DNA of 43,845 nucleotides from Candidatus Bathyarchaeota archaeon (GTDB lineage: Archaea; Thermoproteota; Bathyarchaeia; Bathyarchaeales; Bathycorpusculaceae), in contig CAWABA010000012.1 in the NCBI GenBank assembly GCA_963780185.1, forward strand, positions 1 to 43,845, read 5' to 3'. The notes beneath the pieces are model-generated. The model was not told where the DNA came from. It saw only the letters and a program-made list of their open reading frames with translations, and ran no database searches. Both the position numbers and the translations under genes were made by a program. This document shows positions 17 to 20,700 of the stretch, one piece after another; position 1 is the first letter of the stretch, and the number at the start of each line of letters is the position of its first letter.

Positions 17-2674
17 ATGATTTTTCCACTCTGCAACCAGGGAGCAGTCATCGGGCAAGTTCAGTATTCGCCTTCGATAATCGCGGTGACGGCTTACAAC
101 GCGGTTTTCGTCAAGCTCAGCCAAGCATCCCAAACCATCACGCAGGTCTACAACGAAACCACCGCAAACACCATTCTCGCAGCAATCTGCAGCGCCGCCG
201 ACGTACCCGCCGGCAACTGCCCAACCTTCACAGTCAGCATCACTTTTAACAACGCAAACTGCTTCAAAGCTGCGCAGAGCCTCGCAAAAGCCTGCGGCAT
301 GGACTATTGGGCTGACGCAGACGGCTTCAACATCGGCACCCGCGACGGGACGCTTCAGGCGTTGGACTGGATCGACGGCAACAGCAAAAGAAGCTTAGAC
401 TACAGCAAAACAGTCGACTATGTTATCGTCAACGGCGTTAACTCCGGAGGCTTAGCCATTCAAGGATCCGCGGGCACGCCTGGAGGAAGCATAGCGACTT
501 TTACCGAGAAGAAAGCCTGCGACGTTGCTACGCTGAACAATGTAGCCGCCTTTAAACTTCAGAAACTCAACAACCCCTCCAACGGCAACAGCTTAGAATG
601 CCTAATCACCCAAGTCGCCACGTGGCATCCTGGGCAATACGTTTCGGCGAACCGCGCAGACTTGGATTTGGTCGGTAGCTTCATCATTGAACGGATCACC
701 AAAAACGCGGTCGCCTGCACCGTTGAAGTTGACGTGGCTATGCCTCAGATGGATATTGATGCGCTTGAGCAAGATGACTATTCAGGTCCAGAGGGCGACT
801 TAGCGTCTTACGCGGCTCAGCCGACTACCCAAACCCCAGTTAACCTGGTTCTTCATGGGCTTCTTGGTCTCTATCATCTTTGGGAGGGACAGGGAACGTT
901 CGCTCAGGATTCCGCGCCGAACACAACCCCAAACAACGGCAAAATAACCAACGGCACATGGGTTCAAGGGCCTCTCAGCCAGGTTTTACAATTCAATGGG
1001 TCTGGGTATGTTGACTGTACAAACAGCGCAGACGTGACCTCGGCTGGCGCTAACAGCAAATTCGCAGTTGGCTGCTGGTTTAGCCCGTCAGCCTTAATTG
1101 ACCAGGCATCGTTGATCGGGAAAGCTGACCAGTTCTCTCTGGAGCTATCGGGCACCGCGGGAGCCATCCGCTTCGGTGTATACATCGGCGGCGCATGGAA
1201 ATACCTGACATCTCCCAACGGCGTTGTTCCTGTTAATGCCCGATGCTTCGCCATGGGCGTCTATGACGACGCCAACATGTACCTGTACGTCTCTGACCCT
1301 TCAGGAGTCAATCAACTGCTCACTTTTTACCAGGCTCAGACGGGAACCTTAGCCCAATCCAGCAGTGACCTCTACCTCGGGGGCTCTGGCTATAGGGGCG
1401 TCATCTCGGAATGCATGGTTTGGAGTCGGGCTCTTGCCGCTCAGGAGGTGCAGGAGCTCTTTTTTCGACCCCTTGTGCGAGTTGTCAACCTAGGTCAAGT
1501 CGGCCTTTACCTGATTTGCGGCTCCAGCATAAAACCGCAATATACGGTTGTGCCAAATTATCTGCTTGACAGCTTGATTTTAAACGGGAAAGTCGTCGTT
1601 TCATCAGCAACAGGTACCATGAACAGTTATGAGGCAGGCTACACTGTCCTGGGGCTTTTGCAGTTTGGAGGCTCAACTTACTACAGTTTAGCCCAAGCCA
1701 TTCTGGATCTGTGGGCATCTCTGCAGAACTCGGACGGCAGCTGGTATCAACAGTACAACCCTTACTCTCTGTACAGCGTTGTAACCCAAACGTCTGAGGG
1801 CACAGACGGCAACCTGAAAGTCGACTCTGGCGCAGCATTACTTGCCTGGGCAATGAGCTACTACGACCAATTAACCAGCGGCACCCGATACAAAACCAAC
1901 GTACAAACCGCCCTAAGCTTCCTACGGCAACTACAATACACGCACACGGTTGCTCACTCATCAAATCTTATTGCAAACATAATCTTAGACGGCACAACGG
2001 ACACGACCGCGTTGTTGGCTGACTGCGCCGAATGCCTGCTCGCGGCTAAGCATGCAATGGATACTTACGGGTCAAACCTTCAGACGTCGGCAAGTTACAG
2101 TGTGCAACAGTTCGCAAACGACCTTTACTACAGCATGTGCGTAGTTGGCTGGCGCGGCAACTCAGCGCTTTATTTTGACACTTCTTACCCCTACGAGCAG
2201 AATACAAACATCCCCTTCAACTTCCAAGAAAAAATCAGCTACACCCAAGCCCTCTGCAGCTGGGCAGTCTACGAATTCGCCAAAAGCCCTTATCAGAACA
2301 CAAGCGACTACAGCGACACCATCTGCGAACCCTGCATCGACTACATCATCACCGTAACCCGCGGCTCCTGGGGCGGAGAATACTACTGCCCCTACACTGG
2401 AGCATCAGGTCAATCGCAGAATGAATTTGCTGGGTACTCAGCCCTAATGTGCATAGCAACCCAAAAAATCAACAGCACAAAATACGCGTCCTTGATCTCA
2501 GGTTTAACAGGTTTCCTGAAGTGGCTTGCTTTGCCCGACGGGCGAGTCTGCGATGTAGCCGACGCTACAGGCAAACTGTGGAGAAGCAAAATTGCCACAG
2601 GCTCAATGGTAACGGAAGGCGGCTTTTTGGCGCTGCCTATCGCTTTGGCTTTACTTGCAGGCACCGGAAGTTAA
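17..2674 (+). CDS. Viral tail/baseplate-hub-like protein fused to a LamG (ConA-like) domain and a C-terminal alpha/alpha-toroid domain; probably 5'-truncated
   Basis: N-terminal ~240 aa resemble tail proteins (GMDYWAD..., WHPGQYV...FIIERIT). The LamG pattern runs from GLLGLYHLWEGQG to GVISECMVWSRAL..QEVQELF. The C-terminal part is helical with QNSDGSW. The frame is open back to base 2. Confidence 0.65.
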   Translation: MIFPLCNQGAVIGQVQYSPSIIAVTAYNAVFVKLSQASQTITQVYNETTANTILAAICSAADVPAGNCPTFTVSITFNNANCFKAAQSLAKACGMDYWADADGFNIGTRDGTLQALDWIDGNSKRSLDYSKTVDYVIVNGVNSGGLAIQGSAGTPGGSIATFTEKKACDVATLNNVAAFKLQKLNNPSNGNSLECLITQVATWHPGQYVSANRADLDLVGSFIIERITKNAVACTVEVDVAMPQMDIDALEQDDYSGPEGDLASYAAQPTTQTPVNLVLHGLLGLYHLWEGQGTFAQDSAPNTTPNNGKITNGTWVQGPLSQVLQFNGSGYVDCTNSADVTSAGANSKFAVGCWFSPSALIDQASLIGKADQFSLELSGTAGAIRFGVYIGGAWKYLTSPNGVVPVNARCFAMGVYDDANMYLYVSDPSGVNQLLTFYQAQTGTLAQSSSDLYLGGSGYRGVISECMVWSRALAAQEVQELFFRPLVRVVNLGQVGLYLICGSSIKPQYTVVPNYLLDSLILNGKVVVSSATGTMNSYEAGYTVLGLLQFGGSTYYSLAQAILDLWASLQNSDGSWYQQYNPYSLYSVVTQTSEGTDGNLKVDSGAALLAWAMSYYDQLTSGTRYKTNVQTALSFLRQLQYTHTVAHSSNLIANIILDGTTDTTALLADCAECLLAAKHAMDTYGSNLQTSASYSVQQFANDLYYSMCVVGWRGNSALYFDTSYPYEQNTNIPFNFQEKISYTQALCSWAVYEFAKSPYQNTSDYSDTICEPCIDYIITVTRGSWGGEYYCPYTGASGQSQNEFAGYSALMCIATQKINSTKYASLISGLTGFLKWLALPDGRVCDVADATGKLWRSKIATGSMVTEGGFLALPIALALLAGTGS

Positions 2675-2726
2675 CACGGTTTCTGCAGCCCCGTTTTTTC
2701 TTTCATTAGTTAGACTCTGGATGGCT

Positions 2727-2735
2727 CAGTCGCAC
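2727..2735 (+). promoter_or_regulatory. CAGTCGCAC motif, copy 1 (candidate viral regulatory element)
   Basis: The identical 9-mer occurs at 5567-5575; both copies lie ~40-50 nt upstream of a small membrane-protein gene. Confidence 0.3.
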
Positions 2736-2823
2736 GTTCTTTTTCAAAGTAATCTTGCGTTATAGGCTGTGAGAGTAGAGTATGTTATCCCTTCAAAAGT
2801 AAAACCATCTGAAAGTATTAAGC

Positions 2824-3072
2824 ATGATCCTGATTGGCTTAGTCGCTATTACAGTTCCTGCAGATTTTCTCTATGAAGCAATAAGTGCAATAATTTTTGT
2901 CCTCCTTGGTGTCACAGACTACGTAATAGCTCACTACCTCGCAGATCCAACAACAACAGCAGTCGACATCAACAGTGTCTTACAAGGCTTAACTAAATCG
3001 GTGCAAGACCTTAAAACGGCGCCAATTGTACAGCAACCAATTGATAAGAACCAACTTGCCGTGATGTCCTAA
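2824..3072 (+). CDS. Small two-TM membrane protein, holin-like candidate
   Basis: Two hydrophobic segments and a polar tail, located after the tail gene. An in-frame ATG at 2782 is separated from it by TAA at 2800-2802. Confidence 0.55.
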   Translation: MILIGLVAITVPADFLYEAISAIIFVLLGVTDYVIAHYLADPTTTAVDINSVLQGLTKSVQDLKTAPIVQQPIDKNQLAVMS

Positions 3073-3392
3073 ACATCATGACCCAACTAGCATATACTAA
3101 AGTGGCGGCGCCTTCGACTTCTGCAATTTTAGTTGCCCGCCCAGGACATAAGCATTCTTTCTTTTTCTTCTTTTCTTAATTCAGAATTTAGTTAGTGCTA
3201 TAGAAACAATATTTTTTATCAAAAAACCAAACTGAAGACAGCCGTATTTTACCCTACCAAAAAAATGAAATTACATTTTTTGATATTAGCAATCAATATT
3301 GTTAGCGCTTAAGGTTAAAGTCCTCGTTCTTGCTTATGAATTTGCGAAACAGAAATAAAGCAAACGACCCAATAAGAACAAGGGATAACGCT

Positions 3393-4256
3393 ATGAGTGA
3401 ATTGGAAAAAGTCATCGGAGAAGATCTGAAGGCTGCCATTGCTGCTTTTAAAGAGGACTCATACGATACTGCTAACGTATTAGCCAATCGTATTATGTCA
3501 AATGCAATTTTTGCCCAAAATAATAGGATCTTCTTGCCGGGCTTTTTCTTGAAGGACGTAGCCTTTCATTTTGGTCTACTGAAGGTTCGCAGCTCCAGTG
3601 TGGCATTCTCCACAGCTAAATCACATGGTTTTACCTTTGTTGAAAGCTTAGTTAAACAATTTCCCACGTTTGATGAAAAAGACTTATGGAGCCATTTTCT
3701 GGAATATAACGAAAAAATGCGCCATTTTGAATTAACAGATTGGGAAAATAAAAGTTATTCCGTTAATACAAAATTTGCAAGTGAATCATTCAAGTGGCTA
3801 CTAACTTACCTCCAACAGAATAAACAGGCGTTACTGGACCCAAGAAACTTTTTAATCAAAGGTATCATAAATGAGATGAATCGTATTTACAGGGTTCATT
3901 CAGCCGAACTTAGAGACTTCGCTAATTTGTACCTGATAATTGCGCTTGATAGAAATTACGACTATATTTGCCGAATTTGGAATAGGCCGGACATCCGATT
4001 AATAGACGAACAAGAGGTTCAAAAATTCGTTTACCCCGCAGTTGACAAAATAATTAGTTTAAGTCTTCAAGAATTTAATGTCTCAGACTTGGATGCCGAA
4101 TTGTGGATTTTAGTTAAAAAATGGAGAGAATCTTTTATTTTGTATGGTGAATTATTATCACCTGCAGTTGCCTTGCAAAAAGGCATAGAAATACCTGAAG
4201 AGTTAAAGAAAAAATTAAGCGATAGTTTAACAAAAACTTTGGAAAACCAAATGTAG
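3393..4256 (+). CDS. Hypothetical all-helical protein, gene 1 of an AT-rich three-gene operon
   Basis: Long ORF; ATG 3393 (MSELEKV) is a more plausible start than 3330; 8 nt gap to the next gene. Confidence 0.75.
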   Translation: MSELEKVIGEDLKAAIAAFKEDSYDTANVLANRIMSNAIFAQNNRIFLPGFFLKDVAFHFGLLKVRSSSVAFSTAKSHGFTFVESLVKQFPTFDEKDLWSHFLEYNEKMRHFELTDWENKSYSVNTKFASESFKWLLTYLQQNKQALLDPRNFLIKGIINEMNRIYRVHSAELRDFANLYLIIALDRNYDYICRIWNRPDIRLIDEQEVQKFVYPAVDKIISLSLQEFNVSDLDAELWILVKKWRESFILYGELLSPAVALQKGIEIPEELKKKLSDSLTKTLENQM

Positions 4257-4264
4257 GATCATTT

Positions 4265-5101
4265 ATGAGCGAATCTTCACTGCTTTATGAATTGGTTGCT
4301 CAAATAAGAATTAACAACCCTGGTGCAACAGAGGACGAAATCTCAGTGGGAATCATGTCAATTCTTAGCAAAGAAATTCTTCCAAGTGTATTAAAGAATT
4401 TATCATTGCCTAAATTTCCATCCGCTATGGATGAAAGCTTAGAAACGAAAAGACTGAAAGGCCTGCAGGGGTCACGAATAGAGAAAATTGCCAAAGTACA
4501 TCAACGGAGAAGCTTAATTCAGGAAATTGAACAGGTCAGAACTGCGATGGGTTGGGATGGCATAGACGATTTGACTCCCAGAGTTCAGGTCAGCGATTCA
4601 AACTCAATCTATCCTTTTGCAAGAACTCACTCAGCGTCTAAGAATGAAAAAATTAAGAAACAAATAGCTCCAATTGAAATTGAGTCTGAAACAGAAAAAG
4701 AAACTATTAACACAACCGCTCAAAAAATAAATGTTCGTCCAGAGATAAATATTATCGACTTATCAGAGTCAACACAAAGGAAAATAGTTTCAGAACCTTT
4801 GTTTGAGACTTTCTTCAAAGGTGCTGAAGTAAAAATAAGACAAGCAGTCGCAACAAGAGAGCCTGAAACTAGAATAGAAGTACTCTGCAACCCTGACGAA
4901 GAGTCACCAGATAGAACTAAATGCATTGTAAAAATTCATCCACGACAAGGCCTTGATTTTAAAGAAAGAATGAAGCTCTCAACGGTTTTTGATATTATTA
5001 TTAGAACTGAAATCAAATCTTTACTGGAAAAGTCAGACGTTGACGGCAAAAAATACTTACAAAGCATTAATAGAAACTTATTTGTACACGTAGATTTATA
5101 A
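4265..5101 (+). CDS. Hypothetical protein with a C-terminal degenerate nucleotidyltransferase-like (HEPN-partner) domain
   Basis: 278-aa ORF. The C-terminal IEVLCNPDEE...IVKIH...F.ERMKL...LFVHVDL has the beta/alpha pattern I associate with MNT-like partners upstream of HEPN genes (inference). Confidence 0.55.
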   Translation: MSESSLLYELVAQIRINNPGATEDEISVGIMSILSKEILPSVLKNLSLPKFPSAMDESLETKRLKGLQGSRIEKIAKVHQRRSLIQEIEQVRTAMGWDGIDDLTPRVQVSDSNSIYPFARTHSASKNEKIKKQIAPIEIESETEKETINTTAQKINVRPEINIIDLSESTQRKIVSEPLFETFFKGAEVKIRQAVATREPETRIEVLCNPDEESPDRTKCIVKIHPRQGLDFKERMKLSTVFDIIIRTEIKSLLEKSDVDGKKYLQSINRNLFVHVDL

Positions 5102-5110
5102 AGTTAAGAC

Positions 5111-5482
5111 ATGCCTGGTCCTTTCAAGCCGAAAAAATTTTTGGAGCTAGGGAAAACGCTGCTAGCGGACTCTCGTTATGATGAGGATGCTAGAATCAGG
5201 ACTTCTATAGGTCGTTGCTATTATGCGACGTTTTTAATCGCCTGGAGAAAAATGTCACGGGCGGGTGTCAAGTTTGTTGATAAAACGAAAATCCATCAAG
5301 AAGTGAAAGATGCATACATGGATAGCGGGCACTCTGACATTGGAAACAAGTTGGATCAACTACGAGAAATGAGAAGACGCGCAGATTATGAAATGGATAC
5401 GGAAATAGTGATGATTGAGTGCAAACAATGTGCCCAGCTTTCCGAATACACCATAGAATTAATAAGTGAAATTGCAGTTTGA
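5111..5482 (+). CDS. HEPN domain protein (UPF0332-like), putative RNase toxin
   Basis: RTSIGRCYYATF...H...LDQLREMRRRADY motif set; 123 aa, helical. Confidence 0.85.
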   Translation: MPGPFKPKKFLELGKTLLADSRYDEDARIRTSIGRCYYATFLIAWRKMSRAGVKFVDKTKIHQEVKDAYMDSGHSDIGNKLDQLREMRRRADYEMDTEIVMIECKQCAQLSEYTIELISEIAV

Positions 5483-5566
5483 TGACTCAAAAGCATACTT
5501 ACCCGTTCAGGTTCAAGCCTGATAAAACTTAACTTCTTTGCATTGACTATCCTTTAGCTTCGCTTG

Positions 5567-5575
5567 CAGTCGCAC
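5567..5575 (+). promoter_or_regulatory. CAGTCGCAC motif, copy 2
   Basis: Identical to 2727-2735; followed by the SD-like GGAGGTGA and the 78-aa membrane ORF. Confidence 0.3.
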
Positions 5576-5615
5576 CTAACCACTTCCAATTTAGGTATTC
5601 ACCACACGAGGGGAG

Positions 5616-5852
5616 GTGATTTTATTGAGTTATAAAGTTTCGTTTAGTCTAAACCATGGAGTAGCTTTAGCATTTGTCGTCGGTTTAATTGCAGGTTTAA
5701 CGTATCTGATCGACCAGAACGCGCCTATCACGGTCAGCATGGTTCTGATGGGAGTAGTCATCGGCTTAACCGCAGCTCTACATTACGAACAAGGCGACGC
5801 AACATCCACCAGCACCAAAACACAGAACCCTCAGCCTCAAACCCCAAAGTAA
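5616..5852 (+). CDS. Small two-TM membrane protein, holin-like candidate
   Basis: Two hydrophobic helices and a T/Q/P-rich tail; strong SD GGGGAGGTGA (true start may be TTG 5625). Confidence 0.65.
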   Translation: MILLSYKVSFSLNHGVALAFVVGLIAGLTYLIDQNAPITVSMVLMGVVIGLTAALHYEQGDATSTSTKTQNPQPQTPK

Positions 5853-5853
5853 C

Positions 5854-5894
5854 CCCGCGAAAGAAGGCGGGTCTGAATTTTTCCTATCTTTTTT
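5854..5894 (+). terminator. Hairpin plus T-rich tract, terminator-like
   Basis: CCCGC-gaaagaag-GCGGG directly after the stop, followed by T-runs. Confidence 0.45.
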
Positions 5895-5904
5895 GTAACT
5901 AAAT

Positions 5905-6336
5905 TTGATGGTGAATTTTTTGGAACAACTGAAAGAAATTAAGAAGCAGCTTGAATCGATCAGTGTCGGCGACCTAATCTGTGTTGAATGGTGCGACGCC
6001 AGCACGGGCAAAAGCAACGGAAGCCAAGACATCGACGTGCCCGTTAAAAGCTGGGGCATATTCATCGGCGTCTTAGGCCTTAGAACCAAGCATATCGTGC
6101 TTGCCCAAAACAGCTTCTGCTACTCCAAAGACCAATTCGACTTGGATTACACGGCTATCCCGCTTAACTCCGCAAACGACGTCGCAGTCGTAGTCACGGG
6201 GCTCATTCCAAAGGAGGCATCGGGCAAATTGGTTAACAGCTTCTTGGAGGGTCACTGCCACCCGCTTGCGAGTCCCCGAATGCTTCAACGCAGAATTTTC
6301 CAGCAGAGGCTGAGCCTAAATGGGAGACCCGATTAA
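5905..6336 (+). CDS. Virus-type hypothetical beta-barrel protein (GDLICVEWCDAS...SWGIFIG)
   Basis: V.W.DA...S.G pattern that I recognise from small phage proteins; overlaps the next ORF. Confidence 0.7.
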   Translation: MMVNFLEQLKEIKKQLESISVGDLICVEWCDASTGKSNGSQDIDVPVKSWGIFIGVLGLRTKHIVLAQNSFCYSKDQFDLDYTAIPLNSANDVAVVVTGLIPKEASGKLVNSFLEGHCHPLASPRMLQRRIFQQRLSLNGRPD

Positions 6337-6562
6337 ACGTGCTTTAACATGCAGGCGGCTGGAGCGGGGGCGGTTCATAGATGAGGAACCCGACGACACG
6401 CTGGTTTACGCTGTGAAGTTCGGCATCGCTATGACTGTGTGCCTCTCAGCGCTTGAAGTCGCGTACATGGGTTTTCTGCATAGTTGGAACAGCGAAGTAT
6501 TCAGCGCCATCACAGGCTTAGCAGGCATACTAATCGGCGTTTTCGTCGGAAGAAAAAAATAA
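6320..6562 (+). CDS. Small two-TM membrane protein
   Basis: Two hydrophobic helices and a basic C-terminus (GRKK); overlaps the upstream gene. Confidence 0.7.
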   Translation: MGDPIKRALTCRRLERGRFIDEEPDDTLVYAVKFGIAMTVCLSALEVAYMGFLHSWNSEVFSAITGLAGILIGVFVGRKK

Positions 6563-7032
6563 AACCAAAATCGAAGAATTATAGTCCTTCAAAAACGCTG
6601 ATTCCCATCATAAGAAGATTGCTGTCTTGCAACCGTGCCAGCAATCGCTTATGGTTTTGATCATCCACAGTTAATTTGCGCTGAGCAATTCTCCCCGAAA
6701 AGCTATTGCGATGAGAAAAAGTAAACCCCGCTTTCCTCTCAAATTCTTTTAGTTAATTTGTTATTATCTCCAACTGAATTTTGAGCAACATCGTAAACTA
6801 TTTGCAAAAATGTTATTAACCCTAACAATCCAATAAGACTATGGCGACCGAGACATTGGTGAGAAGGTTGGTATGCATAATTTTTGTTGGTAACAAAATG
6901 CAGTCACATAATTTTAATATTGATTTGCGTTTCATAATCTTTACAAGGTTAATTAGCAGATCTTTAGCGCGAACTCTTATATAGGGTTAATTGAAAATGA
7001 CAAGTCCAAAAACACAGGTAAAGGACTGTAAT

Positions 7033-7658
7033 ATGAGTGACGTGCGAGAAACAGAGTTTGGTGCAAACGCTGTTCTCATGCTTTCCTTAGTTTCTAACAG
7101 TCTCCAGAAAAGGTTGGCTGGGGATAACTAAGCTGCAAAAACTCTCTTTCCTAATAGAATATCTCCTAGGCTCAAAGAGGTATTAGAGCTTTCGGTTACG
7201 AGTTTTTCATGTATGATCATGGTCCTATTAGCAAAGGCGTTTACAACGACTATGAAGCCTTACTTGATGAGCAACTCTTGATAGAGGACGAAAACGGGAT
7301 CCAAGTTAGTAGTACTGGAAAAAACATAAGTCTGCAATTTGAGAGTATTATACCTGCGGAAATTAGAGATACTATGCAACAAGTTGTAAAAGATTATGGG
7401 CATTTAAGAACACATGAAATGAGAAAGCTTGTTCATGATATGCAAATTCAATTGCCTAATGGAGCCGTTGTAAAGGTGGATAATATTGGGAAAGGTTGTA
7501 CTGTATTGGCTCCATCGTCAAAACATTCCTTTACTCTTAGGTCAGATTACTCTGAAACTTTTGCAATAATGGCAAATAGTTCGTTAATGGATTCAATCCG
7601 TGCAACCAGGAAAAAAGGCTCGAAATGCAGTCCATATAAGCCTATTTCATCTACTTAG
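7033..7658 (+). pseudogene. Panacea/SocA (DUF4065) antitoxin, split by two frameshifts (~7120, ~7180), possibly sequencing artefacts
   Basis: Stitching frames gives MSDVRE...GITKLQKLSFLIE...FGYEFFMYDHGPISKGVY, the Panacea KLQKL...GP signature. Confidence 0.75.
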
Positions 7659-8047
7659 TACTTTTTAGAACGGTGTCTTTGTTTTACGAATTTCTTCCAG
7701 CCTTTGGCTCTTGCCATTTTTAAGTCAGCGTAAATGTCATGGTCATTGTATTCCCATAACAATATAGCATCGTTAGTCATCTGCGGGCAAATTGGGCAAT
7801 TGTTGATGATTGTTGCTTCCTTTTTTCGACAATCTTCACATATAGCATAAACTATTCTTCCGCCAGTTTTTAATTTGTTATAACTCCAGAGACCTTCGAG
7901 TTCGTAATGTAATTCTTCATTACCATAAGGATCTACAGCAATGGAATTTAGCACCTTATCGTCAATGATTTTCCTGACATATTCCGTTAATCCGACAATA
8001 GAAGGTCCCCACGAATCATCATTAGTAAATATTTGATAGCTCCGCAT
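7655..8047 (-). CDS. RelE/ParE-superfamily toxin with a Cys4 (CEDC...CPIC) insertion
   Basis: DPY..EELHYELEGLWSY...GRIVYAI...HDIY pattern; size fits. Confidence 0.75.
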   Translation of the reverse strand: MRSYQIFTNDDSWGPSIVGLTEYVRKIIDDKVLNSIAVDPYGNEELHYELEGLWSYNKLKTGGRIVYAICEDCRKKEATIINNCPICPQMTNDAILLWEYNDHDIYADLKMARAKGWKKFVKQRHRSKKY

Positions 8048-8433
8048 TTTTCAATCTCTCTCTTCCTTCTCAAGAATAAATTATTTCGCTTACCAGCATT
8101 GCTCGAGATTACTTCAAGGGACATAGTTGAATTATTTTTCTAAATAAGGTTTGTGTATTTGTCATATATTAACTACAAATGTGCATATAAGAAAACATCT
8201 AATTTTTATTTAGATCTTAGAGATTTTCTTCTCCGCTAAACTTTCAAGATTTCTCGTAATTCGAAGTGCTGCCGGGTGCTCAAAAAACACACGCGACACC
8301 CAGCAAGCCCATAATGGCACTCATCCTTATCTTTAAGTTATTTTACGATTTTTCCATCTTTTCACTCTTGGGATTAATCGGGGAAAAAACTTTGGTAAAT
8401 TCTTTTATACACCTAAGCAACAACAGATTGTAT

Positions 8434-10089
8434 ATGCCCGAAAATACAGACATGCAAAATCGTGGCTTGATTGGCCTCATGGCAGATATCAAGAACGGGA
8501 TTATACGTATACCTGATTTTCAGAGAGGCTATATCTGGACAAGAGATCAAATTACGGAATTGCTTGATAGTGTTTGGAACGGTTATCCATTAGGGTCGAT
8601 ATTGCTATGGAAAACTAGAGAAGATTTGAAGGAAAGAGACCCTTTAAACTTACGATTGCCAAAACCACCTGATAAATCTGAACGTAATTATTTGCTTGAC
8701 GGACAGCAAAGACTCATTACTTTGTATTCTGTTGTACATGGAAAAGTGCTTTTGACAAGAAAGCTAAAAGCGCAAGCTTTCTTTCATTTGGATAAAAAAA
8801 ATTTTGTGCTCAAATCTGACGAAGAACTCGTCGAAACTCCTCTAACTTTAGAACAAGGCTTTCTACCATTAACAAAAATGTTCTGTTTTGCAGATGATGC
8901 CTATTCCTCTGCAGGTCAAGATAGGGAGATAATGCGTGCACTTACCGGAAATCCTGATCGAAGTATGGCTTATACCGATTTGTATGGTCAATTTAGCAGT
9001 TTAAAGTTTCCAACCGTAACTAATGGCCAACCACTAGCAGTTGCTTGCAAAATTTTTGAGCGACTAAATAATACTGGGACCAGATTAACGGTCGCGGACT
9101 TGATGGTTGCCATAACGTACAGGCATAATTTCAATCTCAGAGACAAATTGGTAGAGGTTAATGATGATTTCGAGTCTAAATACTATGCGTTGAGTGAAAG
9201 AACAATTCTTCAATGTATATCTGCTTGCTTAGAGAAGGGAACCGAGAAAGATAACATAATCGATTCTTCAAACAAGATTCATGAAGAATGGGAAAAGAGT
9301 ATTGAGTCAACACAGCTAGCGGCTGATTTCCTTAGAGCACATTGTTACGTTCCTGTTTCAAAATTCTTACCTTATGAAATAATTTTGGCACCATTATCCT
9401 ATTTCTTTTATAAATATGGCAGCAAACCGTTAGACCCTGCGAGGGCTCAGAGGCTAAAAAAATATTTCTGGCTTAATATGCTCTCAGAAAGATACACATC
9501 GTCCCAATCAAGCCGCGCCGAAGAAGACATCAAGAACATGGACTTGCTTTTATCGAATCCCGACATAGATCTGTTTAATTATTATGAGAAACCGGTTACG
9601 AAGGAAACAATTAAGGCTCTTGACATGAGCTTCAATTCAGGTCTTGCCGTAACAGTTTTGTGCTTCTTGGCATCTAAGAACCCCCGAGAATTCCAAAATG
9701 ATTTGATTGTACGACTTGACCAGACTTTTGGAGAAGCAAATCAAAGTCAATTGCATCACATCTTCCCAGTAAATTATCTGAAGATCAAATTCGAAAAGGA
9801 TGAGAAATATTTTAAGACTTACATTAAGCCTTACATAAACAGCATAGCGAATATATCCCTAATTTCAAGAGCTTGTAATAGAGATATTTGGGACAAGGAA
9901 CCGAGTGTCTATTTTGGACAATTCGAAAAACGTAACAGTATGCTTCGGAGAGACTTGGAGACTCACTTAATTACTGACGTGGATAATTTTGGACTTAAGT
10001 CAAATGACTTTCCTAAGTTTATCGATGCACGTGCGGACCGAATAGCTAATGAAATCAACGGTTTCGCAACTTCCCTAAAAGAAAACTAA
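8434..10089 (+). CDS. GmrSD-family (DUF262 + DUF1524/HNH) modification-dependent restriction nuclease
   Basis: IPDFQRGYIW, GYPLGSILLW, LLDGQQRL, IFERLNNTG, LHHIFP...NSIANISLI...N; start moved to ATG 8434. Confidence 0.9.
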   Translation: MPENTDMQNRGLIGLMADIKNGIIRIPDFQRGYIWTRDQITELLDSVWNGYPLGSILLWKTREDLKERDPLNLRLPKPPDKSERNYLLDGQQRLITLYSVVHGKVLLTRKLKAQAFFHLDKKNFVLKSDEELVETPLTLEQGFLPLTKMFCFADDAYSSAGQDREIMRALTGNPDRSMAYTDLYGQFSSLKFPTVTNGQPLAVACKIFERLNNTGTRLTVADLMVAITYRHNFNLRDKLVEVNDDFESKYYALSERTILQCISACLEKGTEKDNIIDSSNKIHEEWEKSIESTQLAADFLRAHCYVPVSKFLPYEIILAPLSYFFYKYGSKPLDPARAQRLKKYFWLNMLSERYTSSQSSRAEEDIKNMDLLLSNPDIDLFNYYEKPVTKETIKALDMSFNSGLAVTVLCFLASKNPREFQNDLIVRLDQTFGEANQSQLHHIFPVNYLKIKFEKDEKYFKTYIKPYINSIANISLISRACNRDIWDKEPSVYFGQFEKRNSMLRRDLETHLITDVDNFGLKSNDFPKFIDARADRIANEINGFATSLKEN

Positions 10090-10188
10090 AACATTTCTTC
10101 GTTTTCTATATTTGTCAATTAGTTGAGCTTTCTCTAGAAATAAAGTGTTTTTTCCCATTTTTATTGTTGCCAGCGGAGGCTATGCAGT

Positions 10189-11661
10189 TTGCAAAACCAA
10201 GAATATTTCCGTATCAAAAAATTTCGAAGAACCTATGACCGAGAGGCAGGAAAATTTGCGTTTGACATCAGCTACGAAACCCACACCCAAATCACGCCAA
10301 GAAGCCTGGTTGTGGCTGAAGCGTTCGGGCTCGGCATCGATGAAGCCCAGAAATTCAAGGTTTTAGACGCTGAACTCAAGATAAGCCCAACCGACATCGT
10401 GTACGTCAGCGGGGACAGCGGCAGCGGAAAAAGCGTTTTGCTGCGTGCAATTCGGGCAGATTTGGGTGGCGAAGCGGTGGATTTATCCGAGGTCTCGGTT
10501 GACGCCAATAAGCCTTTGATCGAAACCGTCGGCGAAACGGTTGAGGAAGGCTTGGAGCTTCTGAGCAAAGTCGGTTTAAACGATGCTTTCCTGTTTCTGC
10601 GCACCTACAACCAACTCAGCGACGGCCAGAAATACCGTTACCGAATAGCCAAGCTAATTGAAAGCGGCAAACAATGGTGGCTCATGGACGAATTCGCCGC
10701 TTGCTTGGACAGGGACACCGCCAAAATCATTGCGTTTAACCTGCAGAAGATAGCTCGGCAGCAGGGCAAGGCAGTGATTGCGGCTACAACCCATGGCGAC
10801 TTGTTCGGCGACCTTGCGCCCAGCGTGCATGTGCATAAGCGGTTCGGCGAAGAAATCCAAATAAGCTATTATCCCAACAATTCAGCGGCAGAATGTAGCC
10901 TCTTCAAAGAGATGAAGGTCGAGTCGGGGGCGATGGAGGATTGGCGCAGACTTAGCCGTTTCCATTACCGATGACATCGAACGGCTGCTCCCCGAAGAAT
11001 CTTTAGAATTGTGCGAGGCGGAGAACTTTGCGGCGTCATCGTTTACAGTTACCCACCGCCCCGCTGCTACGGACGACGGCTTGTGCTACCCTGCCTGTCG
11101 ATAGCCGAAGCCAACAAGCAACTAAGCATCATTAGCCGAGTGGTTATTCACCCCAAGTACCGAACAATCGGTTTAGGCGCCAAATTGATCAGAGAAACGC
11201 TTCCCCTGGCGGGAACGCCTTACGTGGAGTTGATTGCAGTGATGGCGAAGTACTCTCCGTTTGCCGAAAAGGCTGGGATGCAGAAAATAATTCAGCAGGA
11301 ATTTACAGACAGCGTAGTAGAAGTAGCAAAAACTCTTTCTCAGCTCGGCTTCGACTTGCATCTGCTGGGAAGCGGCAGCTACGTCAAGGAGAAACTTGAC
11401 AGCTTAGGCCGCAAACAAATGTGTCAGCTAAAAGAAGCCTTCGCCAAAAAAGGGCATCTGCGGTTTAGACAGGAACTTGCCTGCCGACAACCCTTCGGAA
11501 AGACATCCGACTACCTTAAAAACCTGCAAAATGCTGACAGCGAAAAGATGGCTAAGCTCATAAAAATCGTCGGGGTTCTGATGCAAACTAAAGTCTACTT
11601 ATTTTGGAAAAACAGTACCTACCCGCAACCTGCGCATGAACTTGGAAGTCCCGTGCGATAA
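10189..11661 (+). CDS. ABC-type ATPase fused to a GNAT acetyltransferase (COG2401-like), interrupted by an in-frame TGA at 10972-10974
   Basis: Walker A GDSGSGKS, signature LSDGQKYR, Walker B WLMDEF, H-loop ATTH, GNAT motif ISRVVIHPKYRTIGLG. Both ORFs share one frame: FHYR*HRTAAPRRIFRIVRGGELCG. Confidence 0.85.
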
Positions 11662-11702
11662 GCAGATAAAGGATTCTGCAGATTCAAACAGGGGAAATCG
11701 CA

Positions 11703-12518
11703 ATGTCACTGATTTACGTGCAGCCTAGAATTTGGAAATGCCACGGCATAGCGGAGCATGCGGAGTATTGTTTTGACGATTTTCTGAAATTCGCAAACGA
11801 ACATGGCTGCAACCTTGAATTGGGAACCTTTGCCTACGCGAACGCGCTTGACGGTAATTGGCGTAGCCTCGTTAGGGGGCATCAACGTGGGCTTTCAGCA
11901 TTCAAAGGCGAAGTGTCGGTCCACGGCGTTTTTCAGGACATTTGCATACACAGCAACGACAACAAAATAGCGAAGGTCTCAAGACAGCGAATCCTCAGAA
12001 ACATGGACATCGCTAAAGCCCTCAGAGCCAAATACGTGGTTTTCCATGCAAACTTTAACCCCTTCGTTTACGGCGAACTCTACAGGAGCAACTGGATTGC
12101 GCGTAACGCCAGTTTCTGGAGAGAAGTCCTCGACAAATACGAAGCCACGGTGCTTCTGGAAAACTTTTGGGAACCCTCACCCGAAATTTTGAGCGCCCTC
12201 CTAAATGAGGTTGGCAGGTCGCGCCTAAAGGTCTGCTTGGACACGGGGCACGTGAACGCTTTCTCCAAAGTAAGCATCGAAGAATGGGTAGCTAAACTGA
12301 ACACGCTGGTTCCCTACATGCATTTCAGTGACAACATGGGCAAATCCGACCAGCACTTGGAAATAGGCAGAGGCAACATCAACTGGCAAGCCTTAACCAC
12401 CGCTCTCGAGAAGTACAAGGTTAAACCCGAAGTCGTCCTTGAAACTGAAACAATAAAGAAAACCGAAGACTCATTGACGTATTTAGCGAAGAACAAATTC
12501 TACCCCTTTAATCGTTGA
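11703..12518 (+). CDS. Sugar phosphate isomerase/epimerase (AP endonuclease family 2 TIM barrel)
   Basis: VVFH, LLEN, CLDTGH, HFSDN...DQHLEIGRG and VVLE metal-binding motifs. Confidence 0.85.
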   Translation: MSLIYVQPRIWKCHGIAEHAEYCFDDFLKFANEHGCNLELGTFAYANALDGNWRSLVRGHQRGLSAFKGEVSVHGVFQDICIHSNDNKIAKVSRQRILRNMDIAKALRAKYVVFHANFNPFVYGELYRSNWIARNASFWREVLDKYEATVLLENFWEPSPEILSALLNEVGRSRLKVCLDTGHVNAFSKVSIEEWVAKLNTLVPYMHFSDNMGKSDQHLEIGRGNINWQALTTALEKYKVKPEVVLETETIKKTEDSLTYLAKNKFYPFNR

Positions 12519-17726: not shown

Positions 17727-20700
17727 GTGAACTATGGCGGGGAGAACTTGGCAAATGGAGCGCAAAGCAACCCAGAAATATTCACTGTAAAAGAGAATGT
17801 TCCCTTAGCTCCGCCTCCAGTAACAACGGAAGAAGTTTTGACTCTGCCCGCGAATGACTTGTTGTCTAAGCTTGGGACTTCGACGCAAGGTCTCAGCTCC
17901 GAAGAAGCTGAACGAAGAATCAACGTTTACGGCACCAACGAATTAGCACGCAAGCTGAAACGTTCCGGCATAATCAGTTTTCTTCTGCATTTTAAAAGCC
18001 CATTGATTCTGATTCTTTTAGCCGCTGCCACTTTCGCCGGCGCAACAGGTGACATTCCTGACTTCACCATCATATTTGTCATTGTACTAATCAGCGTTAG
18101 CATAGACCACTATCAAGAATCTAAAGCTGAGAACGCCGCTGAACTTCTCAGAGAAAAAGTCAGCACAACCGCGACTGTTATTCGAGATAACACTAAGAAA
18201 GAGGTAAAACTTTCCCAGATTGTCCCCGGCGACATCATTTACCTTTCAGCCGGCGACATAGCTCCTGCGGATGCAAGAATAATCACCGCCAAAGACCTCT
18301 TCATCAACCAGAGCTCTTTAACTGGTGAATCGTTCCCTGTTGAAAAAACAGCTAACAGTTTGCAGCCTGTTAAATTGTCGTCTGGTTCGATCACAGAATG
18401 GGACAATTACCTTTTTATGGGAACTTCCGTTGTAAGCGGCAGTTCAATAGCTGTGGCTGCTAAAACAGGCGGATCCACTGAATACGGAAAAATCGCCAAA
18501 AAACTCGTTGCTAAGCCGCCTGAAACAGAGTTTGAAAGAGGCGTCAAAGGATTCAGCTACCTCATCATGCAAGTCACTTTTGTGCTGATTATCTTCGTTT
18601 TCATCGTGCTTGCCCTGTTCCATAGAAGTTTGATAGAGTCGCTGCTTTTTGCGGCTGCCCTGGCAGTGGGGTTGACCCCTGAGCTTTTGCCAATGATCAT
18701 CACTATGAACCTTTCAAAGGGCGCCGTGAACATGTCAAAGAAAGGCGTCGTCGTCAAGCATTTGCCTTCCATCGAGAACTTCGGCAGCATGAACGTTTTG
18801 TGCACGGACAAAACTGGAACTTTGACGGAGAACAGCATATCGCTTATCATGCATGTTGATTTTGAAGGTAAAGACGATGACAAAGTTCTTCTGTACTCCT
18901 ATCTAAACAGCTTTTACCAAACTGGGCTTAAAAGTCCACTTGACGAAGCCATACTTGTCCATAAAGAAATCGATCTTAGCTCCTACCAGAAAATCGATGA
19001 GGTTCCGTTTGATTTTGTTAGAAGACGCGTCTCAGTTGTGGTTGAGCGGCAGCGGGAAAGAGTTCTAATCGCTAAAGGTGCACCTGAAGAAGTGTTGAAG
19101 GTTTCTTCCTACTGCGAAATAGAAGGAGTCATCCAAGACATAAGCGAAGAACTTCGGAAAAGAATCGAACAAAAATACTTTGACTTAAGCTCTGAAGGCT
19201 TGCGGGTGCTGGGCGTTGCCTATAAGAAAATGAAGGAAGAAAAAGCCATCTACTCAGTCAACGACGAAACCGACATGGTTTTCCTCGGCTTCATCGCTTT
19301 CCTCGACCCGCCCAAGCAGACCGCCAAAGAGTCAATTCAACTTCTAGCCAAAGAAGGGATAGAACTAAAAATTGTCACAGGCGACAACGAACTGGTAACA
19401 AGGAAGGTTTGCGAGCAACTTGGCTTCGAAATTAAAGGGGTTGTTCTTGGGACCGAGATTTCCCAGATGCATGATGACGCCTTAGCCCGAGTCGTTGAGC
19501 AGGCTAACGTGTTTGCCCGTGTTACTCCGGTGCAGAAAGACAGGATAATCAACCTGTTGAAAAGCAACGGGCACGTCGTCGGCTACATGGGTGACGGCAT
19601 AAACGATGCTCCTTCCCTCAAGACGTCTGACGTCGGCGTCTCCGTTGCCAACGCGGTTGACGTCGCAAAAGAGGCGGCTGACATTATCCTTTTGGAAAAC
19701 GACTTGACGGTGCTGGCTGAAGGAGTAATTGAAGGCAGGAAAACCTTCGGCAACACAATGAAGTACGTTATGATGGGCATCAGCTCAAACTTTGGGAACA
19801 TGTTCAGCGTCGCCGGCGCAGCTTTGTTCTTGCCCTTCTTCCCTATGCTGCCAATCCAAATACTGCTCAACAACCTCATGTACACGGCTTCTCAAACCAC
19901 AATAGCTACTGACAACATTGACGAAGAGTACATTGAGCGCCCCAAAAGATGGGACATTTCTTTCATCAGAAACTTCATGGTGATGGAAGGTCCAATCAGC
20001 TCAATTTTTGATTACACGACGTTCTTCACGATGGTCTTTGGCTTCGGCATTCCTCTCGCCGCATCAGCAACAGGAGTTGCGATAGCCTCTTTGTTCCAGC
20101 AGTCACAGTTTCAAACTGCATGGTTCGTAGAGTCGCTTTGTACCCAAACGCTGGTAGTTTTCGTTATTAGAACGCGGCAGACGCCGTTCTGGAAGAGCAA
20201 ACCAGGGAAATACTTGACCATCAGCAGCCTCTCAGTTGTCGCAGCCGCCCTAATCATACCTTACACAGCGCTAGGAAAAGTGTTCAAGTTCGTGCCTCCC
20301 CCACCGCTGTTTTATCTTGCGCTGCTGCTCATGGTGATTACGTACCTGTTCTTAGCAGAATTTGTCAAACGAATATTCTACAAGAGGCACGCATTCAGAA
20401 TTGAGCAAGTTTTGGTTCCGAAACGAAAAACCCTGTACTTAAGCGCCAACACTAGGCTGGCAATGGATATGGGGGCGGTGGTGTGTCTGCGGCCTGAAAA
20501 CGAGATTTCAATTGATTCTCTGCTTGAAGATCTGAAGAGCTTAAACTTTCCTGCTGACCCAGACCGCATCTATCAGAACCTTCAGTATCTGCGCCGCGGC
20601 GGATTAATCGAGGTTGACTGGCACAGGCGCATGGTAAAGAGGACGGGACCAATCAAAGAATACGTCAACAAACGGATTGCCTCCAGCGACATCTGGCCCC

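What the first reader, a model, noticed from the sequence alone, without database searches (positions are those of the whole stretch)
3393..5482. Unassigned three-gene operon ending in HEPN: candidate new antiviral or tripartite TA system
Seen: three tightly spaced genes (8 and 9 nt gaps), AT-rich, inserted among viral genes. Gene 3 is a UPF0332-like HEPN. Gene 2 ends in an MNT-like domain behind a long N-terminal extension with a charged linker. Gene 1 is a 287-aa helical protein I cannot assign. Established: HEPN-MNT pairs are two-gene TA modules and HEPN RNases are common abortive-infection effectors. Inference: gene 1 or the gene 2 extension is a sensor that releases the HEPN RNase upon superinfection. 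I know no named system with this layout.
Basis: partly seen in the sequence, partly recalled or inferred. Interest (0 to 1): 0.75.

Follow-up and report, generated by a model that had tools for sequence, protein, structure and literature searches.

The report
Mobile three-gene HEPN toxin cassette
A small, horizontally moving three-gene cassette of Bathyarchaeia and their viruses pairs two proteins of unknown families with a predicted RNA-cutting HEPN toxin, and probably represents an undescribed toxin-antitoxin-like or antiviral module.

Summary
The three ORFs are real: g1 3393-4256, g2 4265-5101, g3 5111-5482, with 8 and 9 nt gaps and GC 0.37 against 0.46 for the window. The order g1-g2-g3 is kept in 34 of 39 related loci that have room for all three. 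g3 is an AF0298/UPF0332-type HEPN. g1 (all-helical) and g2 match no Pfam, NCBIfam, PADLOC or PDB family. The C-domain of g2 is not shown to be MNT.

Relative to a same-genus genome, the cassette is a 3-kb insertion between conserved chromosomal genes. It was found in 4 of 401 genomes of the class, and it also lies in two viral contigs. It often sits next to integrases or restriction-modification genes.

In four loci (two distinct lineages) the HEPN gene is replaced by a SIR2-like gene, and the g2 C-domain changes with it. One further locus has a PIN-like gene instead. A complex prediction places the g2 C-domain on the HEPN alternative active-site face (0.88 against 0.38 for the best control).

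Best reading: g3 is the toxin and g2 an adaptor or antitoxin. g1 plus the g2 N-domain form a conserved regulator or sensor. Function is inferred and untested.

The parts
3393..4256 (+). g1: 287-aa all-helical protein of an unnamed family (conserved core component)
   Evidence: ORF. The start is supported by the alignment of 28 homologues. The model has pLDDT 86.8 and pTM 0.82 with 14 helices. There is no Pfam, NCBIfam, PADLOC or PHROG hit. No PDB fold match stands above generic helical bundles. 289 representative clusters match at E<=1e-3. N32, R33, G50, W99, E118, Y122, E161, R164 and R245 are at least 90% conserved in 120 diverse members.
4265..5101 (+). g2: 278-aa two-domain protein. N-domain about residues 1-100 (4265-4564), low-confidence charged linker residues 103-157 (4571-4735), C-domain residues 158-278 (4736-5098)
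   Evidence: ORF and model. The N-domain is alignable in the SIR2-type loci, while the C-domain is not. The C-domain is predicted to bind the g3 dimer. Nine of the 19 invariant C-domain residues lie in the predicted interface. There are no family or PDB hits.
5111..5482 (+). g3: 123-aa AF0298/UPF0332-type HEPN, the predicted RNase toxin/effector
   Evidence: 21 of 27 family members hit PF05168. The profile matches PDB 9xbd and 2hsb. phrog_5176 E 5e-13. PADLOC HEPN_IX E 7.5e-4. R88, A91, D92, Y93 and H62 are invariant. This fits the alternative active site described for AF0298-like HEPN (PMC3710099, passages).
2623..2665 (.). left copy of an imperfect direct repeat of about 44 nt, inside the 3' end of the 885-aa gene
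   Evidence: Local alignment score 32; 0 of 500 shuffles reach it (maximum 30). Also visible.
5533..5576 (.). right copy of the direct repeat, just downstream of g3
2591..5607 (.). AT-rich insertion relative to same-genus genome G420. It holds an 82-aa membrane-like ORF (2824-3072) and the trio
   Evidence: In G420:C1 the window stretches 1-2590 and 5608-6569 are separated by about 100 bp. GC between the repeats is 0.375. DNA similarity to the relative L002 covers only 3339-5484.

Best explanation
This is a mobile, self-contained three-gene conflict module of Thermoproteota archaea and their head-tailed viruses.

g3 is the effector. It is an AF0298-type HEPN that would cut RNA using R88 together with the N-terminal H62, in place of the canonical Rx4-6H histidine.

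g2 is a two-domain adaptor or antitoxin. Its C-domain sits on the HEPN face that carries H62 and borders R88, and keeps the effector silent. Its N-domain, joined by a long flexible charged linker, belongs with g1.

g1 plus the g2 N-domain form the conserved core, which is kept even when the effector and the g2 C-domain are exchanged for a SIR2-like pair. This core most likely senses the trigger or controls the stability of g2.

On a trigger, the grip of g2 is lost and the effector arrests the cell. The trigger could be virus infection, or loss of the element that carries the cassette. The outcome would be abortive infection or post-segregational killing.

Shown here: the gene order, the co-occurrence, the insertion, the patchy spread, the HEPN membership and the effector swap. 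Predicted here: g2 C-domain binding to g3. Inferred: toxicity, RNase activity, neutralisation, the role of g1 and the trigger.
For: Co-occurrence:
- Of 39 related loci with at least 1350 bp downstream of g1, 38 have g2 next and 34 have g3 next.
- These 39 loci are 32 distinct lineages at 90% g1 identity: 29 HEPN, 2 SIR2 and 1 PIN-like.
- Five further loci from genomes and viral contigs, and two from another class, also carry the full trio.

Accessory and mobile nature:
- The g1 profile was found in 4 of 401 genomes of the class, and in 0 of 40 other genomes of the genus.
- It was found in 4 of 401 genomes of the phylum sample.
- The trio is a 3-kb insertion relative to G420, with GC 0.37 and flanking imperfect repeats.
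- DNA similarity to L002 is limited to 3339-5484.
- The trio lies in two IMG/VR contigs. One of them has an HK97-type capsid gene.

Context:
- 12 of 22 loci have a restriction-modification, TA, defence-helicase, integrase or transposase gene within three genes at E<=1e-4. The count is 10 if two integrase hits under the Pfam cut-off are dropped.
- In the window, a GmrSD gene lies in a second insertion 1 kb downstream.

Effector swap:
- SIR2_2 takes the place of HEPN in L034/35/36 and L038.
- In those loci g2 matches only profile positions 4-78.
- In L048 the third gene is PIN-like (E 2.3e-4).

Binding prediction, g2 residues 158-278 against two copies of g3:
- Score 0.88; best of 3 controls 0.38.
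- The mark was reached by 116 of 157 solved complexes and by 2 of 215 mismatched pairs.
- The runs agree in at least 94% of contacts, and the partner pLDDT is at least 89.
- No like complex is solved as judged by sequence.
- 9 of the 19 invariant g2 C-domain residues lie among the 20 interface residues of 121 (Fisher p 5e-4).
- The interface includes the invariant g3 residue H62.

HEPN chemistry: R88, D92 and H62 fit the alternative site proposed for AF0298-like HEPN (PMC3710099, passages).
Against: - No experiment exists and no RNA data are available.
- g3 lacks the canonical His of Rx4-6H. RNase activity of the AF0298-type is itself only a published prediction.
- The window's own g3 does not reach any Pfam hit by itself.
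- Only H62 of the 15 invariant g3 residues lies in the predicted interface. The R-x2-ADY motif is only bordered (residues 85, 86, 89).
- The complex job used my own alignments and a 2+1 chain design unlike the calibration.
- A g1 to g2 contact was not tested.
- 10 of 22 loci have only housekeeping or unannotated neighbours, such as ribosomal proteins and Cbf5.
- The SIR2 swap rests on two lineages, and the PIN case on one sub-threshold hit.
- Nothing links g1 to sensing.
- Defence and plain addiction cannot be told apart from sequence.
Confidence: 0.55

Rival explanations
1. It is a plain tripartite addiction (toxin-antitoxin) module that stabilises integrated elements and viruses. g1 would be an accessory factor, such as a chaperone or transcriptional partner of the antitoxin, and there would be no antiviral role.
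For: The cassette sits directly next to integrases in L003 and L005. Weaker integrase hits lie next to it in L062 and L063. It lies inside viral contigs. It is compact and tightly spaced. g2 C-domain binding to g3 is predicted. The flexible linker in g2 is typical of labile antitoxins (that link is from general knowledge).
Against: Exchange of the effector for a SIR2-like protein, with the g1 and g2 N-domain core kept, is the pattern of modular defence systems rather than classical TA pairs. g1 shows no DNA-binding or SecB-like family. Several loci lie in chromosomal restriction-modification neighbourhoods without mobile genes (L002, L046). This reading overlaps largely with the best explanation.
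Confidence: 0.2
2. It is a virus-side weapon. The cassette would be carried by head-tailed archaeal viruses for host takeover or counter-defence, for example degrading host RNA, rather than protecting the cell.
For: L057 carries the trio on a 25.5-kb viral contig with capsid and cement genes. L002/L056 lies in a predicted viral region next to a Laminin_G_3 protein and a weak tape-measure hit. g3 matches phrog_5176.
Against: In the window the cassette stands alone between conserved chromosomal genes, without viral structural genes. Many loci have cellular neighbours. An effector kept with its own predicted inhibitor fits self-restraint in a lysogen better than a lytic weapon. Prophage-borne defence genes are common (PMC9122126, search listing and abstract only).
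Confidence: 0.08
3. It is a type VII HEPN-MNT (HepT-MntA) pair with an extra gene. g2 would be a divergent nucleotidyltransferase that AMPylates Y93 of g3.
For: g3 belongs to the HEPN group usually paired with MNT genes (PMC3710099, passages). It has an invariant Tyr right after the R-x2-AD motif. Two PDB entries of the closest solved relative differ at exactly this Tyr/Phe position in the aligned stretch. One MNT chain appears at rank 43, Z 5.1, in the fold list of g2.
Against: g2 has no Pfam nucleotidyltransferase hit and no PDB sequence hit. No G[GS]-x(9-13)-DxD signature appears among its invariant residues (the signature is recalled). Its strand-strand-helix order lacks the helix between the strands. 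Z 5.1 is at noise level for that search. The best Foldseek hits are OsmC/MamM-like at E 0.017 or worse.
Confidence: 0.04
4. It is a housekeeping RNA-processing or regulatory complex of the cell, with no conflict role.
For: Some loci sit beside ribosomal protein, Cbf5/TruB or kinase genes (L011, L017). HEPN domains also act in RNA processing (PMC3710099, passages).
Against: It was found in 4 of 401 genomes of the class and in none of 40 other genomes of the genus, many of them over 95% complete. It is absent from the empty site in G420. Its GC is foreign to the flanks. Its neighbourhoods vary.
Confidence: 0.03

Closest known systems
AF0298-like HEPN-T / UPF0332 proteins (PDB 2hsb; Pfam PF05168 HEPN)
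   Same: g3 shares the length (about 120 aa). It has a family-level match to PF05168 (21 of 27 members), and its profile matches 2hsb and 9xbd. It shows the same motif pattern: the Arg is kept, Asp stands where the canonical His would be, and a second conserved His lies N-terminal (PMC3710099, passages).
   Different: Those proteins are described as partners of MNT genes. Here the partner is an unrelated two-domain protein, and a third gene is added. The window's own sequence is too diverged to hit the Pfam model alone.
Type VII HepT-MntA (HEPN-MNT) toxin-antitoxin systems
   Same: Both have a HEPN toxin encoded directly after its presumed neutraliser in a small mobile operon. A Tyr follows the Arg motif (abstracts of PMC7641770 and PMC11586414 in search listing).
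   Different: There is no nucleotidyltransferase signature or family in g2. There are three genes, not two. Neutralisation is predicted to be by binding, not by AMPylation. The canonical RX4HXY motif is absent.
Tripartite toxin-antitoxin-chaperone (TAC) and other three-gene TA systems such as HipBST
   Same: Both have three genes, an antitoxin with an extra region beyond the toxin-binding part, and a third protein that may control the antitoxin (recalled; HipBST abstract in listing).
   Different: g1 is an all-helical protein with no SecB, HTH or kinase family. The gene order is different, and the effector is exchangeable.
Modular defence systems with exchangeable effectors (Thoeris ThsA SIR2, SIR2-HerA, Avs and the like) and prophage-borne HEPN defence such as Tha
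   Same: Both keep a conserved core while swapping effectors (HEPN, SIR2-like with weak ThsA hits, PIN-like). Both occur in defence or mobile neighbourhoods and in proviruses (Tha abstract PMC11087260 in listing).
   Different: No component of those systems matches g1 or g2. There is no NTPase, TIR, cyclase or other known sensor domain. So far the module is known only in archaea.

Membership tests
HEPN superfamily, AF0298-like/UPF0332 type (g3) | Sequence match to the HEPN family model | tested here: met
   21 of 27 aligned family members hit PF05168, best E 2.6e-8. The profile hits HEPN chains 9xbd (E 4.6e-7) and 2hsb (E 0.026). The window copy alone gives no Pfam hit.
HEPN superfamily, AF0298-like/UPF0332 type (g3) | Arg of the Rx4-6H motif kept, His replaced, second conserved His N-terminal (alternative site) | tested here: met
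   R88, D92 and H62 are invariant in 27 sequences. The definition is from PMC3710099 passages.
HEPN superfamily, AF0298-like/UPF0332 type (g3) | Endoribonuclease activity | not testable with these tools
   This needs an enzyme assay.
Type VII HepT-MntA (HEPN-MNT) TA | Adjacent minimal nucleotidyltransferase with G[GS]...DxD signature | tested here: not met
   g2 has no Pfam, NCBIfam or PADLOC hit. No PDB sequence hit at E<=1. The signature is absent from the invariant columns of A2 (the signature is recalled).
Type VII HepT-MntA (HEPN-MNT) TA | Nucleotidyltransferase fold of the partner | tested here: inconclusive
   Best Foldseek E is 0.017, to OsmC/MamM-like chains. In the VIA search the best Z is 6.7, and an MNT chain (1ylq_B) appears only at rank 43 with Z 5.1.
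Type VII HepT-MntA (HEPN-MNT) TA | Two-gene module | tested here: not met
   Three genes are kept together in 34 of 39 loci.
Toxin-antitoxin-chaperone (TAC) | SecB-like chaperone as third gene | tested here: not met
   g1 is all-helical and has no family hit in 28 members. SecB as the defining feature is recalled.
Any system in PADLOC-DB v2.0.0 | Model match to the signature proteins g1 and g2 | tested here: not met
   g1 and g2 give 0 hits. The g2 variants and the g1 of L036 and L048 give 0 hits. Among 120 g1 members, 12 different models are each hit by one member at E 5e-4 to 9e-3, which is noise. DefenseFinder and later PADLOC releases were not available.
Accessory defence/conflict module (working class, not a curated family) | Patchy distribution, variable neighbourhood, association with defence or mobile genes | tested here: met
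   Found in 4 of 401 genomes of the class and 0 of 40 of the genus. 12 of 22 loci have such neighbours. The empty site is present in G420.
Accessory defence/conflict module (working class, not a curated family) | Protection against viruses, or toxicity with rescue | not testable with these tools
   This needs experiments.

The most novel reading that the evidence does not exclude
g1 together with the N-domain of g2 is a previously unrecognised sensor and adaptor platform of archaeal immunity. It can be wired through different g2 C-domains to unrelated suicide effectors: a HEPN RNase, a SIR2-like NADase, perhaps PIN. It is traded between Bathyarchaeia, another class of Thermoproteota and their head-tailed viruses. 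The conserved polar cluster of g1 (N32, R33, E118, Y122, E161, R164, R245) would be the site that recognises a viral product or a small molecule.
Probability: 0.4. Interest if true: 0.78.

Novelty: new variant of a known kind. Interest (0 to 1): 0.62.

Why it matters
Most known defence and toxin-antitoxin systems were found and tested in bacteria. Archaea, and Bathyarchaea in particular, are poorly covered.

This cassette offers two protein families with no known relatives, one of them with 289 clusters at 50% identity. Both are tied to a HEPN effector by strict gene order, and to effector exchange.

It gives a compact three-gene system of about 2.1 kb that can be tested directly for toxicity, rescue and virus protection. 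It also gives a concrete predicted way of silencing an AF0298-type HEPN whose alternative active site has never been tested.

If g1 is a sensor, it would be a new kind.

Tried and rejected
- g1 as a second HEPN. The R164-x4-H169 pair looked like Rx4-6H in 28 close members, but H169 falls under 90% conservation in 120 diverse members. hhalign of g1 against g3 gives probability 0.3%. A Csm6 row in the fold list (Z 8.1) covers only the generic N-terminal bundle. Rejected as unsupported and kept only as a faint lead.
- Fold of g1. Foldseek against the PDB gives a best E of 0.52. VIA-align wide gives a best Z of 11.1 on residues 1-93 only, which is under the level usual for helical bundles. Residues 95-287 are barely tested.
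- Atlas look-ups gave nothing usable: the best g1 score was 0.81 with unnamed clusters, and the g2 C-domain had no hit.
- Fused forms. No g2 relative of 488-2000 aa was found, which is weak evidence. The g1 relatives are all about 290 aa. The one 447-aa protein has a low-complexity N-part that looks like an over-called start.
- Expression.
- Earlier findings of this scan: nothing for this place or for the g1 and g2 sequences.
- Direct repeats at the second insertion (6570/10147): the score was not above shuffles, with 68 of 500 reaching it.
- Literature. Six searches found no description of this trio. 'HEPN' does not occur in the main text of PMC10848311 or PMC11705971. Supplementary tables of those papers were not read.
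- L063, where g1 is followed by a 376-aa protein. Its N-terminus looks g2-like by eye, but the g2 profile does not hit it at E<=1 and Pfam finds nothing. Left open.
Full report
**The observation**

The window is a whole 43,845-bp contig (C12) of a 2.75-Mb, 13-contig genome. Named relatives of its proteins come from Candidatus Bathyarchaeia MAGs.

Three same-strand ORFs lie at 3393-4256 (g1, 287 aa), 4265-5101 (g2, 278 aa) and 5111-5482 (g3, 123 aa). The gaps are 8 and 9 nt. A longer TTG start for g1 at 3330 is not supported, because homologues begin at the ATG.

The trio has GC 0.369. The window as a whole has 0.456, the gene before the trio 0.526, and the block after it 0.49.

**What the three proteins are**

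*g3.* On its own, g3 gives no Pfam or NCBIfam hit. It gives a weak PADLOC HEPN_IX hit (E 7.5e-4) and phrog_5176 (E 5e-13).
- At family level the assignment is clear: 21 of 27 aligned relatives hit PF05168 HEPN, best E 2.6e-8.
- The profile finds the HEPN chains 9xbd (E 4.6e-7) and the UPF0332 protein AF0298, 2hsb (E 0.026).
- Invariant residues are R30, T31, R35, Y37, Y38, H62, R88, A91, D92 and Y93.
- The canonical His of Rx4-6H is missing.
- The HEPN survey (PMC3710099, passages read) describes this pattern for the AF0298-like group. The Arg is kept, an Asp stands in place of the His, and a second conserved His lies N-terminal to the motif and could form an alternative active site.
The RNase activity remains a published prediction, not a measurement.

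*g1.* g1 folds with confidence (pLDDT 86.8, pTM 0.82) into 14 helices.
- It has no family hit in any library, nor do 28 relatives.
- It has no PDB sequence match of note.
- Foldseek finds nothing (best E 0.52).
- The alignment-free structure search gives only generic four-helix-bundle matches on residues 1-93, best Z 11.1.
- The family is large: 289 representative clusters at E<=1e-3 and 131 at E<=1e-30, nearly all about 290 aa and standalone.
- In 120 diverse members, N32, R33, G50, W99, E118, Y122, E161, R164 and R245 are at least 90% conserved. This polar cluster suggests a binding or catalytic site.
- The R164-x4-H169 pair that looked HEPN-like in close relatives is not kept. Profile comparison with g3 is negative.

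*g2.* The model has a helical N-part, low-confidence stretches at 56-75 and 103-157, and a well-modelled C-domain at 160-278 with helix, two strands, two helices and a strand.
- It has no family or PDB sequence hit.
- The C-domain is not shown to be MNT. The best Foldseek matches are OsmC/Ohr and MamM C-domains at E 0.017 or worse.
- The wide search peaks at Z 6.7, with an MNT chain only at rank 43 (Z 5.1), which is noise level.
- The recalled G[GS]...DxD signature is not among the invariant columns.

**Is the trio a unit?**

Yes. Searching with the g1 alignment gave the following loci:

| Source | Loci found | Pattern-matching stretches |
|---|---|---|
| Species-representative genomes | 4 | 23 |
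| Viral contigs | 2 | 251 |
| Whole-genome search, class | 3 (besides the window's own genome) | n/a |
| Whole-genome search, phylum | 3 (besides the window's own genome) | n/a |

- One viral locus (L056) is the same DNA as L002.
- Of 54 loci counted, 39 have at least 1350 bp downstream of g1. The count leaves out the window's own locus and the duplicate.
- In 38 of those 39, a g2 relative follows g1. In 34, a g3 relative comes third, always in the same order and on the same strand.
- The 15 loci with less room are cut by contig ends. Nine of them still show g2 or the start of g2 (one, L022, also g3), and six show nothing.
- The 39 loci collapse to 32 lineages at 90% g1 identity: 29 with HEPN, 2 with SIR2 and 1 with a PIN-like gene.
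- Two loci from another class of the phylum carry the full trio. A third carries g1 followed by an unassigned 376-aa protein.

**Effector exchange**

In L034, L035 and L036 (one lineage) and in L038, the third gene is a 314-320-aa protein with a SIR2_2 domain (E 1.4e-9 and 6e-7). It also gives weak ThsA/SIR2 hits in PADLOC.

In these loci the second gene matches the g2 profile only over positions 4-78. Its C-terminal half is unrelated to the window's g2 C-domain.

In L048, which has the most distant g1 (27% identity), g1 is followed by a 205-aa ORF and a 146-aa ORF. The 146-aa ORF has a PIN hit just under the Pfam cut-off (E 2.3e-4, 22.2 against 23.6 bits).

So g1 and the g2 N-domain travel together, while the g2 C-domain travels with the effector.

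**Does g2 hold the HEPN?**

One complex prediction was run, with g2 residues 158-278 as partner against two copies of g3. It passed.
- The score is 0.88, and the best of 3 controls is 0.38.
- The mark was reached by 116 of 157 solved complexes and by 2 of 215 mismatched pairs.
- The runs agree in at least 94% of contacts, and the partner's pLDDT is at least 89.
- The tool warns that my own alignments and the chain design differ from its calibration. The model supports binding but does not show it.
- No like complex is solved as judged by sequence, so recall from a known structure is unlikely.
- Of the 19 invariant residues of the g2 C-domain, 9 lie among the 20 interface residues of 121: K219, F232, M236, T240, D243, R247, F273, V274 and H275 (Fisher p 5e-4).
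- On g3 the interface covers residues 60-89 and 103-113. It includes the invariant H62 and borders R88. H62 is the only one of the 15 invariant g3 residues in the interface.

**Where it sits**

In the same-genus genome G420, window stretches 1-2590, 5608-6569 and 10148-12509 are contiguous, with gaps of only about 100 bp between them. Parts of the same arrangement are seen in G421, G283 and G403.

Two stretches of the window are therefore separate AT-rich insertions between conserved chromosomal genes (GC of the second 0.37):
- 2591-5607, holding an 82-aa membrane-like ORF and the trio.
- 6570-10147, holding a weak Panacea-like ORF, a 130-aa ORF and a GmrSD-type enzyme.

An imperfect repeat of about 44 nt (2623-2665 and 5533-5576) brackets the first insertion. 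Its left copy lies in the 3' end of the 885-aa gene, as after site-specific integration. 0 of 500 shuffles reach its score. No integrase lies inside the insertion.

DNA similarity between the window and the closest relative locus L002 (78.6%) covers only 3339-5484, so the cassette moves as a unit.

The flanks have no structural PHROG hits, and the 78-aa ORF has only a weak holin-like hit.

Elsewhere the link to viruses is real:
- L057 is a 25.5-kb IMG/VR contig with an HK97-type capsid (Phage_capsid_4, E 4.8e-7) and a cement/scaffold gene.
- L002/L056 lies in a predicted viral region beside a Laminin_G_3 protein and upstream of type I restriction-modification genes.

**Distribution and neighbours**

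The g1 profile was found in 4 of 401 genomes sampled from the class, counting the window's genome. It was found in none of the 40 other genomes of the genus, many of them over 95% complete.

It was found in 4 of 401 genomes of the phylum sample. The three others all lie in one family of another class.

Pfam was run on 122 ORFs flanking the cassette in 22 loci. In 12 loci there is a restriction-modification, DNA methylase, TA toxin, PLD-SNF2, HerA, integrase or transposase gene within three genes at E<=1e-4. The count is 10 if two integrase hits below the Pfam cut-off are dropped. The other 10 loci have housekeeping or unannotated neighbours.

**Reading**

The data fit a mobile conflict module. 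g3 is the toxin or effector. The g2 C-domain is its keeper. g1 plus the g2 N-domain are a conserved regulator or sensor, joined to the keeper by a flexible linker.

Whether the module serves virus defence (abortive infection or superinfection exclusion) or plain addiction of the carrier element cannot be decided from sequence.

The HEPN-MNT reading and the housekeeping reading are unlikely, for the reasons given above.

**Known or new?**

No PADLOC v2.0.0 model matches g1 or g2. This includes 120 diverse g1 members.

Six literature searches and passages of three papers gave no description of the trio. Supplements were not read, and DefenseFinder was not available.

I file it as a new variant of a known kind: a HEPN-based toxin or abortive-infection module with two new partner families and exchangeable effectors.

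Noticed in passing
window 6570-10147: A second AT-rich insertion (GC 0.37) relative to same-genus genome G420. It holds a 149-aa ORF with a weak SocA/Panacea hit (7209-7658, E 9.6e-4), a convergent 130-aa Cys-rich ORF (7655-8047, minus strand) and a GmrSD-type enzyme (8266-10089; GmrSD_N E 4.8e-30; PADLOC PDC-M55C E 4.8e-49). Together with the trio, this makes a small defence-island hot spot.
   Followed up: partly
window 17-2674, 5608-6569 and 10189-11661: An 885-aa protein with a Laminin_G_3 domain, a block of small ORFs (78, 143 and 80 aa; two look membrane-bound) and an ABC transporter are conserved and contiguous in several same-genus genomes. The 143-aa ORF plus ABC transporter pair occurs in several copies per genome. 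This looks like a cellular paralogous cassette, not a provirus.
   Followed up: partly
window 17727-20801: A 1024-aa ORF has a very strong match to phrog_12316 'ATPase' (E 3.4e-202). It lies among glycosyltransferase, methyltransferase and radical-SAM genes.
   Followed up: no
window 2824-3072: An 82-aa hydrophobic ORF lies inside the first insertion, upstream of the trio. It is not part of the DNA shared with the relative locus L002 and has no family hit.
   Followed up: partly
L063:1471-3493: In a genome of another class, g1 is followed by a 376-aa protein with no HEPN and no Pfam hit. Fragments of a tyrosine recombinase lie upstream. This may be a further effector type or a fused form.
   Followed up: partly
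L057 (IMG/VR contig, 25.5 kb): A head-tailed archaeal virus contig carries the full trio about 2 kb from its capsid, cement and portal-size genes.
   Followed up: partly
PDB 9xbd / 9xbc: In the aligned stretch, the two closest solved HEPN chains differ at the Tyr/Phe that aligns with g3 Y93. This hints that this Tyr was a target of study. No paper was found for them.
   Followed up: no
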